This document shows, in pieces, positions 29,423 to 42,641 of a stretch of 64,000 bases of DNA. Within the stretch, counting starts at the first letter, position 1. Each line of letters opens with the position of its first letter. The notes beneath the pieces are model-generated. The model saw only the letters and a list, made by a program, of their open reading frames with translations. It did no database searches and was not told the DNA's origin. This DNA is from a virus, in the IMG/VR virus record IMGVR_UViG_3300049988_000263, one strand, 5' to 3'. The position numbers and the translations under genes were made by a program.

Positions 29423-29539
29423 GAAGTAGATGCTCAATGGTTAAAGTCCATCCCTTGGCAGGCGTCGGGACGGTCCATGAAGGACGAGCTTTGGTTACGG
29501 GGGAAACCCCATCGGGTTCGATTCCCGGCTACCTCACCA
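29423..29539 (+). ncRNA. tRNA-like RNA (117 nt)
   Basis: GAAGTAG/CTACCTC-ACCA acceptor (6/7), D-like GCTCAATGGTTAAAGT, T-arm TCGGG-TTCGATT-CCCGG; starts 5 nt after CATAAATA. Confidence 0.6.
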
Positions 29540-36267: not shown

Positions 36268-36476
36268 GGGCGCGAACGCACAGAGTTCGGCGGTGCACCG
36301 GAGAAATGAAGCCGGTTTGGGTAAAACCAGAGGTGTCGGTAAGAGGATAGGGGTATCTTTCGATCCACCCTTGGGCTGTGAGGACCACGGTTCACGGGGA
36401 CACGAATTTCGAACCTGATTCCTGCCCTTCGGGGTGACGCTTTCCTTCGCGGGTTCGAATCCCGTCGCGTCCACCA
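36268..36476 (+). ncRNA. tRNA-like/tmRNA-like RNA with an Ala-type acceptor (209 nt)
   Basis: GGGCGCG/CGCGTCC with G3-U70, A73, CCA; T-arm GCGGG-TTCGAAT-CCCGT. Confidence 0.6.
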
Positions 36477-41968: not shown

Positions 41969-42268
41969 GCGGGTTCCGCAGGCGTTTCAGGCGCCATCTC
42001 ATAATGACCACGTCCGTCTACGTATTGGCGGCGATCCTTGGCGCCGTCGCTGGCGGCGTATACGGGTACTATCAGACCGCTCCGGTGGAGACACGATGAT
42101 CAAGCTTTTCAAATTCTCGACCACGAAGAATCTTGACGAGGCAGAGGATACTGTTAATACTTTCATCTCGACTGAGAACGCTGCTGGACGACGGTGGCGG
42201 ACTGCCGGGCCGATCGTTGTGGAGAACTACACGTTCTACGTGACGTTGATCTGGGATGAATATAAATA

Positions 42269-42394
42269 GGGCACGATGCTTAGGGGTTCAATTCCCCTAC
42301 GGTCCACCATTGGGGGCCGCCCTGGATTGGGATAAAAGCTATCGGATGACGGGCCTGCGCAGCCTACGGGGTTCGAGTCCCCGCGTGTCCACCA
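42269..42394 (+). ncRNA. Nested double tRNA-like RNA (two T-arm + CCA units)
   Basis: Outer GGGCACG/CGTGTCC-ACCA; inner ACGGTCC-ACCA pairs with downstream GGGCCGC; both have G3-U70 and A73. Confidence 0.65.
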
Positions 42395-42410
42395 TCAAAC
42401 TGGAATCACC

Positions 42411-42641
42411 ATGACCTATGCTGGGGCGATCAGCCCTTACTGTTTCCGACGCGTCCCCCAGGGGTTTTCCCATCCGGTGGAGTGTGGACCGCGTACGATG
42501 CTCTCACAGGCCACCGCATGGTGCCGCCAGCACCTTTCCGAGGACCAGTGGTGGGTCTGGGCACAAACACCGCCCGCGAACGTCCTGCTGTTCCGGGACG
42601 CGACCACGGCAGATCGATTCAAGCATGCCCTGCCTGTATGA
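42411..42641 (+). CDS. Divergent FKxRW-family protein
   Basis: AWCRQHL...WW...FRDATTADRFK. Confidence 0.6.
   Translation: MTYAGAISPYCFRRVPQGFSHPVECGPRTMLSQATAWCRQHLSEDQWWVWAQTPPANVLLFRDATTADRFKHALPV

What the first reader, a model, noticed from the sequence alone, without database searches (positions are those of the whole stretch)
42261..42394. Nested, cross-paired double tRNA-like RNA with two Ala-type acceptor ends
Seen: after TATAAATA the order is GGGCACG, T-arm 1 (AGGGG-TTCAATT-CCCCT), ACGGTCC-A-CCA, TTGG, GGGCCGC, ~45 nt, T-arm 2 (CGGGG-TTCGAGT-CCCCG), CGTGTCC-A-CCA. The first 5' strand pairs 7/7 with the second 3' strand, and the second 5' strand pairs 6/7 with the first 3' strand (circularly permuted). 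Both give G3-U70 and A73. There is no canonical D or anticodon arm. Established: G3-U70 is the AlaRS identity element, and alphaproteobacterial tmRNA is permuted and two-piece. Inference: a tmRNA/tRNA mimic or decoy yielding two chargeable ends.
Basis: partly seen in the sequence, partly recalled or inferred. Interest (0 to 1): 0.72.

Follow-up and report, generated by a model that had tools for sequence, protein, structure and literature searches.

The report
Two-headed alanine tRNA-like phage RNA
A 126-base gene in a large uncultured phage belongs to a conserved, apparently undescribed family of small RNAs found in big phages; it folds into two tRNA "top halves" with swapped strands, each ending in the signals for carrying alanine, and probably mimics the bacterial ribosome-rescue RNA (tmRNA) or alanine tRNA.

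Summary
The element (window 42269-42394, + strand) is one of at least 10 distinct members of an RNA family. I found the others in viral and metagenome contigs, always on the same strand inside dense tRNA gene arrays of large phages. It is single-copy in two complete megaphages of 345 and 453 kb.

Covariation supports the nested, cross-paired fold. 96% of cells pair, 15 of 27 pairs change on both sides, and 0 of 500 shuffles match. The rival side-by-side fold fails at the discriminating positions. Both acceptor ends keep G3-U70, A73 and CCA.

Neither ARAGORN nor Rfam calls the element. There is no conserved tag reading frame. The complete phage genomes carrying it encode no SmpB. No bacterial genome matched the search pattern.

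The closest known RNAs are TLD-only mini-tmRNA (phage DS6A), permuted two-piece tmRNA, and the RNase P-cleaved tRNA-like core of M. smegmatis YrlA. It meets the membership criteria of none of them.

The most likely mechanism is inferred, not shown. The RNA is matured like a tRNA at both G+1 sites into two pieces held together by swapped acceptor strands. It is then alanylated and acts as an anticodon-less tmRNA/tRNA-Ala mimic.

The scan has no look-alike sequence on other DNA.

The parts
42261..42268 (+). TATAAATA, a promoter-like motif (T4 late-promoter consensus) that abuts the RNA's first base
   Evidence: The ATAAATA core occurs 9 times in the window against 2.3 expected, with 0 of 100 shuffles reaching 9. 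At 6 of 8 + strand sites the downstream feature starts 5-6 nt after the motif. Here it abuts G1, so a transcript from it would lack most of strand A. This is unresolved. The other family members have no such motif.
42269..42275 (+). 5' strand of outer acceptor stem A (GGGCACG)
   Evidence: It pairs 7/7 with 42384-42390 including G3-U70. Positions 5-7 covary across the family (helix 1).
42276..42281 (+). 6-nt joint (AUGCUU; family consensus A-K-G-Y-W-K)
   Evidence: Its length is fixed at 6 nt in all 10 core members, and A8 and G10 are invariant.
42282..42298 (+). T-arm 1 (5-bp stem, UUCAAUU loop), stacked on inner stem B
   Evidence: helix 2: 96% paired, with 2 pairs changed on both sides.
42299..42309 (+). 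3' strand of inner acceptor stem B (ACGGUCC) plus discriminator A and CCA
   Evidence: It directly follows T-arm 1 as in a tRNA. U70, A73 and CCA are present in all members, including those retrieved by a pattern that did not require them.
42310..42313 (+). Linker UUGG between the inner CCA and the next G+1, a presumed spacer removed by RNase P and 3' trimming
   Evidence: Across the family it is 3-5 nt, A/U-rich and variable in sequence, with U at -1 in 7 of 10 members. It resembles the inter-tRNA spacers of the same arrays.
42314..42320 (+). 5' strand of inner acceptor stem B (GGGCCGC)
   Evidence: It pairs 6/7 back to 42299-42305 with G3-U70. Position 7:66 is mismatched in every member. Positions 4-6 covary (helix 3).
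42321..42329 (+). D-loop-like motif CCUGGAUUG, carrying a conserved GG shortly after strand B
   Evidence: Rfam's permuted and cyanobacterial tmRNA models align it to their UGGUUU element. The GG is conserved in the family.
42336..42350 (+). Conserved block AAGCUA-YGG-N-GAC, resembling the tmRNA GG..GAC element that precedes helix P2
   Evidence: It is conserved in 9 of 10 members. It is also present in a single-acceptor mini tmRNA-like RNA at L185:1417-1522. The resemblance to tmRNA rests on my own knowledge and was not confirmed by a model score.
42351..42366 (+). Small hairpin (GGGC / 7-nt loop / GCCU) plus one A, occupying the position of a capped tmRNA P2 helix
   Evidence: helix 4: 92% paired, with 3 of 4 pairs changed on both sides.
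42367..42383 (+). T-arm 2 (5-bp stem, UUCGAGU loop), stacked on outer stem A
   Evidence: helix 5: 100% paired, with 4 of 5 pairs changed on both sides.
42384..42394 (+). 3' strand of outer acceptor stem A (CGUGUCC) plus discriminator A and CCA
   Evidence: This end was not required by the H1 search pattern, yet NNNGUCC-ACCA is present in 9 of 10 members.

Best explanation
This is a genuine, conserved small-RNA gene of large phages. It folds into a four-way junction made of two tRNA 'top halves' (an acceptor stem stacked on a T-arm) whose acceptor strands are swapped. The first 5' strand pairs with the last 3' strand (head A, stacked on T-arm 2). The second 5' strand pairs back onto the first 3' strand (head B, stacked on T-arm 1). 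Each head carries the alanine identity set: G1-C72, G2-C71, G3-U70, A73 and an encoded CCA.

Shown here: the fold, its conservation and covariation, its restriction to phage tRNA arrays, and the absence of a tag frame.

Inferred: it is transcribed with the neighbouring tRNAs. RNase P cuts before both G+1 residues, the outer one and the one after the 3-5 nt inner spacer. Exonucleases then trim to CCA. This would give a roughly 41-nt piece and a roughly 81-nt piece that stay together because each acceptor stem is built from both pieces. Host AlaRS would charge one or both ends.

The RNA would then act as an anticodon-less, tag-less mimic of the tmRNA tRNA-like domain or of tRNA-Ala. It would engage host factors that recognise that shape (SmpB, EF-Tu, AlaRS). 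The most likely outcome is to block or bypass host trans-translation during infection, as engineered TLD-only tmRNAs do.

My odds for each step: real structured RNA family, about 0.95; tRNA-like maturation of the outer end, about 0.8; cleavage at the inner junction, about 0.55; alanylation of at least one end, about 0.6; an SmpB or trans-translation role, about 0.3.
For: Structure. RNAalifold on a plain MAFFT alignment predicts exactly this fold, with 16 of 27 pairs compensatory. On the model-based alignment 96.3% of cells pair, against 75% in shuffles and 38-54% in slid registers. 15 of 27 pairs change on both sides, and 0 of 500 shuffles match on any of the five measures. In the rival cis fold the acceptor helices pair only 64-67%, and positions 5-7 are mostly unpaired.

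Family. There are 10 distinct sequences at 50-96% identity. They score 84-132 bits with model R1, and the next-best hit scores 54 or less. The element is the only part of window 37-47 kb that aligns to other members' loci.

Context. All other members lie on the same strand in tRNA arrays, often 2-7 nt from the neighbouring tRNAs. The element is single-copy in two complete megaphages.

Identity elements. The outer UCC-ACCA is conserved although the H1 pattern did not require it. The inner one is conserved when a pattern does not require it.

Processing precedents. Phage permuted tmRNA genes with 4-nt CCA-to-G+1 spacers exist (L005 and L006; PMC9004378). The sealed 7-bp acceptor of M. smegmatis YrlA is cut by RNase P in vivo and in vitro, gains CCA, and the two halves persist (PMC4201824). 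The inner linker is variable, A/U-rich, and has U at -1 in 7 of 10 members.

Function precedents. Phage DS6A carries a TLD-only tmRNA, and a similar TLD-only molecule strongly inhibits tmRNA, perhaps by titrating SmpB (PMC4131195; PMC11915505). That minihelices carrying G3-U70 are AlaRS substrates is established knowledge, recalled rather than tested here.
Against: There is no direct evidence of transcription, processing, charging or protein binding.

The tmRNA kinship is weak by score. RF04321 gives 20.3 bits against a threshold of 47, RF00023 gives 8.2 bits, and ARAGORN makes no call.

The complete phage genomes carrying the element encode no SmpB, so any SmpB link depends on an unknown host.

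No variant was found with the two halves encoded apart. Such a variant would have been the cleanest genomic evidence for a two-piece RNA.

In this particular phage a promoter-like TATAAATA abuts G1. A transcript from it would lack most of strand A.

Why a decoy would need two heads is unexplained.
Confidence: 0.5

Rival explanations
1. One-piece RNA. The inner junction is never cut. T-arm 1 plus the sealed inner stem would be a structural or protein-binding module inserted into a standard-order mini tmRNA-like RNA, whose only free and chargeable end is the outer one (head A with the GG..GAC block, the capped P2-like hairpin and T-arm 2).
For: If the segment from T-arm 1 to strand B is removed, the remainder reads acceptor - AUGC.. 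- CUGGAUU.. - GG.GAC - hairpin - T-arm - acceptor - ACCA. That is the layout of a standard-order TLD-only RNA. L185:1417-1522 has this layout and the same conserved block without the insert. No split-gene variant was found. S. Typhimurium YrlA and D. radiodurans Yrn1 are not cut at their sealed stems (PMC4201824).
Against: An uncut loop gives no reason to keep A73-CCA and G3-U70 invariant while the adjacent 3-5 nt vary in length and sequence. The junction is indistinguishable from inter-tRNA junctions in the same arrays. A seven-position acceptor stem on a T-arm is the feature that made M. smegmatis YrlA an RNase P substrate.
Confidence: 0.25
2. In this phage the abutting TATAAATA is the working promoter. 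The RNA would start near C42274, stem A could not form, and only the inner permuted head B would be functional. T-arm 2 and the last CCA would then be vestigial.
For: The motif is enriched in the window. Elsewhere in the window it is followed at +5 or +6 by leaderless ATGs or by the 5' end of another tRNA-like RNA.
Against: Stem A pairs 7/7 here and covaries family-wide. The outer G3-U70, A73 and CCA are intact. Upstream genes lie on the same strand, so read-through precursors are plausible. The motif also doubles as the last codons of the upstream ORF. No other member has it.
Confidence: 0.1
3. A YrlA-type Y RNA, meaning a Ro60 (Rsr) partner whose tRNA-like core has the order T-arm - sealed acceptor - D-arm inside a terminal stem.
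For: The inner module has the same topology. One megaphage carrying the element encodes a TROVE protein. Y-RNA-like modules were noted elsewhere in this window.
Against: The terminal stem has no GNCGAA Ro60-binding motif. Instead it is a second Ala-type acceptor with its own T-arm and CCA. RF02553 does not hit the locus at E up to 10. It gives only sub-threshold hits in the carrier genomes, none at the element's position in the three records I could map, though a 20-bit hit in the L152 contig may overlap it. TROVE is absent from the other complete megaphage, and in the first it lies about 100 kb away.
Confidence: 0.06
4. A bona fide tagging tmRNA, one-piece or two-piece, with a very short tag.
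For: An A-rich run followed by a conserved GCU recalls a resume codon. In the window the frame reads Ala-Ile-Gly-stop. Two-residue tags are reported in some bacteria (PMC11915505).
Against: Reading from the conserved GCU, stops fall at different places or are absent before the 3' end in half the members. No peptide has a degron-like end. There are no pseudoknots. Neither ARAGORN nor Rfam makes a call.
Confidence: 0.03
5. Non-functional debris: decayed tandem tRNA-Ala genes, a tRNA 3' fragment kept as a phage attachment site, or a chance arrangement.
For: Tandem tRNAs give partial matches to model R1 of up to 54 bits. One member (L273) has a degenerate outer 3' end.
Against: Compensatory changes occur in five helices across sequences down to 50% identity. 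The element is an island of conservation between otherwise unalignable phage DNA. Cross pairing beats cis pairing in every member. Chance expectation in the window is 0.00.
Confidence: 0.02

Closest known systems
TLD-only ('CDS-less') mini-tmRNA, e.g. mycobacteriophage DS6A (PMC4131195; PMC11915505)
   Same: Phage-encoded. It has an Ala-type acceptor (G3-U70, A73, CCA) and a T-arm, with no anticodon arm, no tag reading frame and no pseudoknots. A GG..GAC-like element and a short capped helix precede the T-arm. A likely mode of action (titrating SmpB and inhibiting tmRNA) has experimental support for engineered TLD-only RNAs.
   Different: Those RNAs have a single acceptor end in standard gene order. 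This family has two, with swapped strands and a second T-arm. Rfam tmRNA models do not reach threshold here.
Circularly permuted two-piece tmRNA (Rfam RF04321, RF01849-51), including phage-borne copies (Melnitz and pelagimyophages, PMC9004378; L005 and L006 here)
   Same: The inner module has the gene order T-arm - 3' acceptor strand - ACCA - short spacer - 5' acceptor strand - UGGAUU-like D-loop element. The expected maturation uses tRNA-processing enzymes to give two base-paired pieces. Some phage copies also have 4-nt spacers.
   Different: There is no coding piece (no tag frame or pseudoknots). The helix that clamps the two pieces is itself a complete second Ala-type acceptor with its own T-arm and CCA. 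The model score is 20.3 bits against a threshold of 47.
tRNA-like module of YrlA Y RNAs (Rfam RF02553), especially M. smegmatis YrlA (PMC4201824)
   Same: It has a permuted tRNA-like core with a T-arm followed by a sealed acceptor stem. The M. smegmatis RNA, whose stem is 7 bp, is cut there by RNase P, gains CCA and persists as two halves. That is direct precedent for the proposed inner cleavage.
   Different: There is no Ro60-binding motif and no consistent Ro60 gene. The CCA is encoded rather than added. Alanine identity elements are conserved. The terminal stem is a second acceptor. The model is below threshold.
tRNA-Ala acceptor/T-arm minihelices (classical AlaRS substrates)
   Same: Each head is a 12-layer stack of acceptor stem and T-arm carrying G3-U70 and A73-CCA. 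This is the minimal unit known to be alanylated (established knowledge, not tested here).
   Different: Those are laboratory constructs with one head. This is a natural gene joining two heads through a 6-nt joint and a roughly 46-nt conserved middle.

Membership tests
tmRNA (SsrA; RF00023 / RF04321) | Ala-type acceptor stem: G1-C72, G2-C71, G3-U70, discriminator A73, 3' CCA | tested here: met
   Present twice in the window. Near-invariant across the family, the only exception in the correct register being the outer end of the degenerate L273.
tmRNA (SsrA; RF00023 / RF04321) | T-arm directly preceding the 3' acceptor strand, and no anticodon arm | tested here: met
   There are two T-arms with covarying stems. 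Neither ARAGORN nor RF00005 finds a cloverleaf.
tmRNA (SsrA; RF00023 / RF04321) | D-loop analogue (UGGAUUCGAC-type) followed by helix P2 | tested here: inconclusive
   CUGGAUU after strand B aligns to the model's UGGUUU. A conserved YGG-N-GAC block plus hairpin precedes T-arm 2. The similarity is short and unscored.
tmRNA (SsrA; RF00023 / RF04321) | mRNA-like domain: a resume codon and a conserved tag reading frame ending in a stop | tested here: not met
   No frame is conserved. Stops are at variable positions or absent.
tmRNA (SsrA; RF00023 / RF04321) | Pseudoknots flanking the tag frame | tested here: not met
   The middle is only about 40-46 nt and holds one small hairpin. No further covarying helix was found.
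tmRNA (SsrA; RF00023 / RF04321) | Detected by the curated models or by ARAGORN | tested here: not met
   RF04321 gives 20.3 bits against 47. RF00023 gives 8.2 bits against 47. ARAGORN makes no call in the window or in any member locus.
tmRNA (SsrA; RF00023 / RF04321) | Binds SmpB and is alanylated | not testable with these tools
   SmpB is not encoded by the two complete carrier phages. The host is unknown.
TLD-only mini-tmRNA (DS6A type) | Little more than one tRNA-like domain, in standard gene order, with a single acceptor end | tested here: not met
   There are two acceptor ends with swapped strands and two T-arms. The single-head relative L185:1417-1522 fits this description better.
Permuted two-piece tmRNA | Gene order T-arm - 3' strand - CCA - spacer - 5' strand, matured into two base-paired pieces | tested here: inconclusive
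   The gene order is met for the inner module. Maturation into two pieces could not be tested. There is no coding piece.
YrlA Y RNA (RF02553) | Ro60-binding terminal stem with a GNCGAA(N)G motif | tested here: not met
   The terminal stem is GGGCACG/CGUGUCC with ACCA and contains no such motif.
YrlA Y RNA (RF02553) | Encoded next to a Ro60/TROVE gene | tested here: not met
   TROVE is found in 1 of 2 complete carrier genomes, about 100 kb from the element. It is absent from the other.
YrlA Y RNA (RF02553) | Reaches the curated model score | tested here: not met
   There is no hit at the locus at E up to 10. Carrier genomes give 30 bits or less against a threshold of 69; none of these hits lies at the element in the three records I could map, and a 20-bit hit in the L152 contig may overlap it.
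tRNA (RF00005) | Cloverleaf with D-arm and anticodon arm | tested here: not met
   ARAGORN and RF00005 make no call at the locus, although they find 16 and 15 tRNAs elsewhere in the window.

The most novel reading that the evidence does not exclude
Both junctions are matured and both ends are alanylated in vivo. This would be the first natural RNA with two aminoacyl-acceptor ends: an obligate two-piece 'two-headed' tRNA mimic held together only by reciprocally swapped acceptor strands. Large phages would use it as a bivalent ligand for host tRNA-Ala/tmRNA machinery, for example two SmpB molecules or both active sites of oligomeric AlaRS. A more radical possibility, at roughly 0.05 on its own, is that it acts on stalled ribosomes as a tethered pair that donates two alanines in succession. 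That would create a template-free C-terminal Ala-Ala degron.
Probability: 0.3. Interest if true: 0.92.

Novelty: new variant of a known kind. Interest (0 to 1): 0.74.

Why it matters
Phage tRNA arrays are usually read as codon-usage or anti-defence spare parts. This family shows they also hold conserved RNAs that standard annotation tools do not call.

This one combines two features previously seen only separately: the TLD-only tmRNA mimic and the circularly permuted, RNase P-matured acceptor. Together they form a strand-swapped molecule with two alanine-type ends. If the ends are charged, it would be a new class of aminoacyl-RNA and a natural test case for how AlaRS, RNase P, EF-Tu and SmpB read minimal tRNA shapes. 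If it blocks or rewires trans-translation, it adds a compact phage counter-measure against host ribosome rescue.

It also gives a ready covariance model (R1) and simple DNA patterns for annotating the family in large-phage genomes.

Tried and rejected
Standard detectors. ARAGORN and Rfam at gathering thresholds make no call at the locus. The best permissive Rfam hit, mascRNA/menRNA at 25.3 bits, is a generic T-arm-plus-stem match to a eukaryotic family and was disregarded.

Source and relatives. There is no DNA similarity to deposited phages in near or distant mode, and no whole genome is held. Protein synteny through the 204-aa neighbour found no relative in IMG/VR. In the protein collection it gave only 100%-identical copies from three other samples, plus one 45%-identity relative whose contig ends before the syntenic position. 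That yields no covariation information.

Searches that went wrong or found nothing. An exact 25-mer search in IMG/VR found nothing. My first double-architecture pattern had the wrong spacing (8 N instead of 7) and cannot count as a negative. It only turned up tandem tRNAs and roughly 90-nt single-head mini tmRNA-like genes. The D-loop-anchored pattern was mostly chance hits plus three true permuted phage tmRNAs. The search for split variants, with piece 1 not followed by piece 2, found none. The H1 pattern found no double element in one genome from each of 185,579 prokaryote species, only ordinary tmRNA 3' ends and tRNAs.

Structural checks. The cis (side-by-side minihelix) fold was rejected. 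No conserved tag ORF was found. No extra covarying helix was found in the middle region or the joint. Thermodynamic stability is no better than shuffles (z about 0), as is usual for tRNA-like RNAs. The 52-aa ORF at 42256-42414 and the 19-codon ORF from the ATG at 42276 were rejected as coding, because selection is on base pairs and the joint is AGGTAT in L184.

Literature. The held supplement text of the 2025 tmRNA database paper contains no family sequence. This is uninformative because the database itself is not held.

Expression. No RNA holder is listed among runs holding the locus.

Full report
WHAT IS THERE

The window is part of a large, tRNA-rich phage genome. It has 16 tRNA genes, a T4-type terminase and many small ORFs. 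It has no DNA match among deposited phages, and no genome is held for it. Identical copies occur in leaf and silage metagenomes.

The finding lies in a 141-nt gap between a 57-codon ORF, whose TAG stop ends at 42269, and the next ATG at 42411.

The segments are strand A (5') at 42269-42275, a 6-nt joint, T-arm 1, strand B (3') plus ACCA, a 4-nt linker, strand B (5'), a 46-nt middle, T-arm 2, and strand A (3') plus ACCA ending at 42394. A pairs 7/7 and B pairs 6/7. Both have G3-U70 and A73. The cis combinations pair only 4/7. ARAGORN and Rfam at curated thresholds call nothing here.

IS IT MORE THAN CHANCE?

In the single sequence, the only discriminating evidence for cross pairing is 5 of 6 pairs at positions 5-7. 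By my own estimate that is roughly p = 0.03, which is suggestive only. The decisive evidence is comparative.

A pattern describing the architecture matched 114 IMG/VR loci. Most were tandem tRNAs. A subset showed the same arrangement with different stem sequences.

A pattern anchored on the first half (H1) was very specific. It gave 11 IMG/VR hits, 36 metagenome hits and 14 prokaryote-genome hits. After inspection this yields 10 distinct family members: the window, the L136 group, L209, L152, L184, L248, L254, L256, the L262 group, and L273, whose outer 3' end is degenerate. There is also a divergent variant, L195:7523-7637. All 14 prokaryote-genome hits were ordinary tmRNA 3' ends or tRNAs.

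RNAalifold on an unguided MAFFT alignment returns the nested fold, with 16 of 27 pairs compensatory.

On the model-based alignment, 96.3% of cells pair. Shuffles give 75% and slid registers give 38-54%. 15 of 27 pairs change on both sides, and 0 of 500 shuffles reach the observed value on any of the five measures.

The rival side-by-side fold pairs only 64-67% in its acceptor helices. At positions 5-7, 6 to 9 of 10 sequences are unpaired.

Covariance model R1 separates members (84-132 bits) from everything else (54 bits or less).

Members are 50-96% identical to each other. The window's copy is 54-72% identical to the rest. In 10 kb around it, the element is the only stretch that aligns to the other members' loci.

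ASCERTAINMENT

My patterns required some of the conserved features, so I checked them crosswise. H1 did not specify the outer 3' end, yet 9 of 10 members end NNNGUCC-ACCA. A pattern that left the whole inner acceptor, CCA and linker free recovered only the same IMG/VR members, and all of them carry the inner UCC-ACCA. The covarying positions were never specified in any pattern.

ANATOMY

Head A is stem A stacked on T-arm 2. Head B is stem B stacked on T-arm 1. In each head the 3' acceptor strand follows its T-arm with no gap, as in a tRNA.

Stem B has a mismatch at position 7:66 in every member.

The joint after strand A is always 6 nt, with the consensus A-K-G-Y-W-K.

After strand B comes a GG-containing CUGGAUU-like motif. 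Rfam's permuted-tmRNA models align it to their D-loop element.

Before T-arm 2 there is a conserved block, AAGCUA-YGG-N-GAC. A 3-4 bp covarying hairpin and a single A follow it. This layout recalls the tmRNA GG..GAC element and a capped P2 helix. That comparison rests on my own knowledge of tmRNA and is not confirmed by any model score.

The same block occurs in a single-head mini tmRNA-like RNA, L185:1417-1522, which lies between tRNA-Ala genes. Rfam does not call that RNA as tmRNA either.

No tag-like reading frame is conserved. No further helix is evident.

CONTEXT

Every other member lies on the same strand inside a tRNA array, often 2-7 nt from its neighbours. In L184, for example, it sits between tRNA-Ala and tRNA-Pro.

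The inner junction (ACCA, then 3-5 variable A/U-rich nucleotides, then GGG) is indistinguishable from the inter-tRNA junctions in those arrays. U occupies position -1 in 7 of 10 members.

The element is single-copy in two complete megaphages of 345 and 453 kb. Those genomes encode no SmpB and no true tmRNA. Only one of them encodes a Ro60/TROVE protein, about 100 kb from the element.

HOW IT MOST LIKELY WORKS

Shown: this is a conserved, structured RNA with two alanine-type acceptor/T-arm heads, embedded among co-oriented tRNA genes.

Inferred: it is transcribed and matured with the tRNAs. RNase P would cut before both G+1 residues, and trimming to CCA would follow. Three things support cleavage at the inner junction:
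- A73-CCA and G3-U70 are conserved next to a linker that varies in length and sequence.
- Permuted tmRNA genes with 4-nt spacers exist in phages (PMC9004378).
- The sealed 7-bp acceptor of M. smegmatis YrlA is cut by RNase P in vivo and in vitro, gains CCA, and its halves persist (PMC4201824).

The product would be a 41-nt piece and an 81-nt piece, with each acceptor stem built from both pieces. Minihelices carrying G3-U70 are known AlaRS substrates, which is established knowledge. One or both ends are therefore probably alanylated.

For function, the only experimentally grounded analogy is the TLD-only tmRNA. Phage DS6A encodes one, and a similar engineered molecule strongly inhibits tmRNA, perhaps by titrating SmpB (PMC4131195; PMC11915505). 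I therefore favour a tag-less tmRNA/tRNA-Ala mimic that blocks or bypasses host trans-translation, but I put the odds at only about 0.3. Why it needs two heads is unexplained.

A LOCAL WRINKLE

In this phage, and in no other member, a TATAAATA motif abuts G1. The ATAAATA core is enriched in the window at 9 sites against 2.3 expected. At six other sites the downstream ATG or RNA 5' end lies 5-6 nt after it.

If this copy fires, the transcript would begin near C42274 and could not form stem A. A full-length precursor would then need read-through from the upstream genes on the same strand. This is unresolved.

COMPARISON WITH KNOWN FAMILIES

The element works like, but does not qualify as, any of the following:
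- **tmRNA.** It has no tag frame and no pseudoknots, and it scores below threshold with the models.
- **TLD-only mini-tmRNA.** Those have one head, and this has two.
- **Permuted two-piece tmRNA.** The inner gene order matches, but there is no coding piece, and the clamp helix is itself a second acceptor.
- **YrlA.** The topology matches and it supplies the RNase P precedent. However, there is no Ro60 motif, no consistent Ro60 gene, and the model is below threshold.

Full-text searches found no description of a double-acceptor, strand-swapped tRNA-like RNA.

Within this scan there is no look-alike sequence on other DNA. That note led me to test the YrlA rival.

LIMITS

No transcription, processing, charging or binding data could be obtained. 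No RNA run is listed as holding the locus.

Family membership was ascertained with exact DNA patterns, not with a full covariance-model search of the collections. The family's true breadth is therefore unknown.

VERDICT

This is a real, conserved and apparently undescribed RNA family of large phages, and a new variant among tRNA/tmRNA-like RNAs. The structure is well supported. The mechanism and function are inferred.

Noticed in passing
window 29423-29539 (+) and L130:3216-3335 (-): A second, different tRNA-like RNA shared by this phage and its 45%-identity relative. It begins 4-5 nt after ATAAATAC and opens with a 5' strand, AUGCUC and a T-arm-like hairpin. That hairpin is a perfect T-arm in L130 and degenerate in the window. 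It ends with a T-arm, a 3' strand and ACCA. It shares the opening module with the double-acceptor family (R1 scores 49.6 and 50 bits) but has no inner CCA.
   Followed up: partly
window 36268-36476 (+): A 209-nt RNA with acceptor GGGCGCG/CGCGUCC (G3-U70), A73, CCA and a canonical T-arm. Rfam tmRNA scores only 10.8 bits (threshold 47) and ARAGORN makes no call. So this phage carries at least three different Ala- or tRNA-like non-cloverleaf RNAs.
   Followed up: partly
L185:1417-1522 (+): A single-head, standard-order mini tmRNA-like RNA between tRNA-Ala genes in a 578-kb phage contig. It carries the same GCUACGGCGAC - hairpin - A - T-arm - GUCC-ACCA block as the second half of the double-acceptor family. 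It may represent the ancestral or sister form.
   Followed up: partly
L195:7523-7637 (-): A divergent double-acceptor variant. Both stems pair 7/7 with G3-U70 and ACCA, but the joint is 14 nt and contains a UAUGGAGA motif, and the middle is shorter. It lies in a 30-tRNA array. The architecture therefore extends beyond the core family.
   Followed up: partly
L122:2759-2856 (-), L124:4136-4232 (+), L125, L127: Roughly 90-nt single-head Ala-type tRNA-like genes (GGGGAUG ... CAUCUCC-ACCA) lying 2-3 nt after a tRNA-Tyr-like gene in several viral contigs. This looks like another mini tmRNA-like class in phage tRNA arrays.
   Followed up: no
L005:3313-3339 region, L006:9160-9187 region, L035: Phage-borne circularly permuted tmRNA genes with only a 4-nt spacer (TTAT) between CCA and the 5' acceptor strand. 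Downstream sequence looks like a tag frame ending in an alanine-rich stretch.
   Followed up: no
window 5105, 23858, 29411, 33183, 36967, 42262, 42884, 52505 (+): The ATAAATA motif is enriched and almost entirely on the + strand. Three sites also have TTGACA 18-19 nt upstream. At six sites an ATG or an RNA 5' end follows after exactly 5-6 nt, which suggests leaderless transcripts from two promoter classes.
   Followed up: partly
L136:435-508 and L136:12366-12441 (+): ARAGORN calls two tRNAs with anticodon CUA (labelled Pyl) in a lake phage contig that also carries the double-acceptor RNA. They may be amber-suppressor tRNAs, which would hint at TAG recoding in that phage.
   Followed up: no
L273:1217-1340 (-): A family member whose outer 3' strand and CCA are degenerate (CCCTGAC-CAAT in place of CGTGTCC-ACCA), while head B and the middle are intact. 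It could be a decaying copy, an assembly error, or a natural inner-head-only form.
   Followed up: no
record behind L184 (345-kb megaphage), about 332.4-332.9 kb (-): A 521-aa open frame with a TROVE (Ro60) domain in a complete megaphage with terminal repeats. It lies about 100 kb from the double-acceptor RNA and the tRNA array.
   Followed up: no
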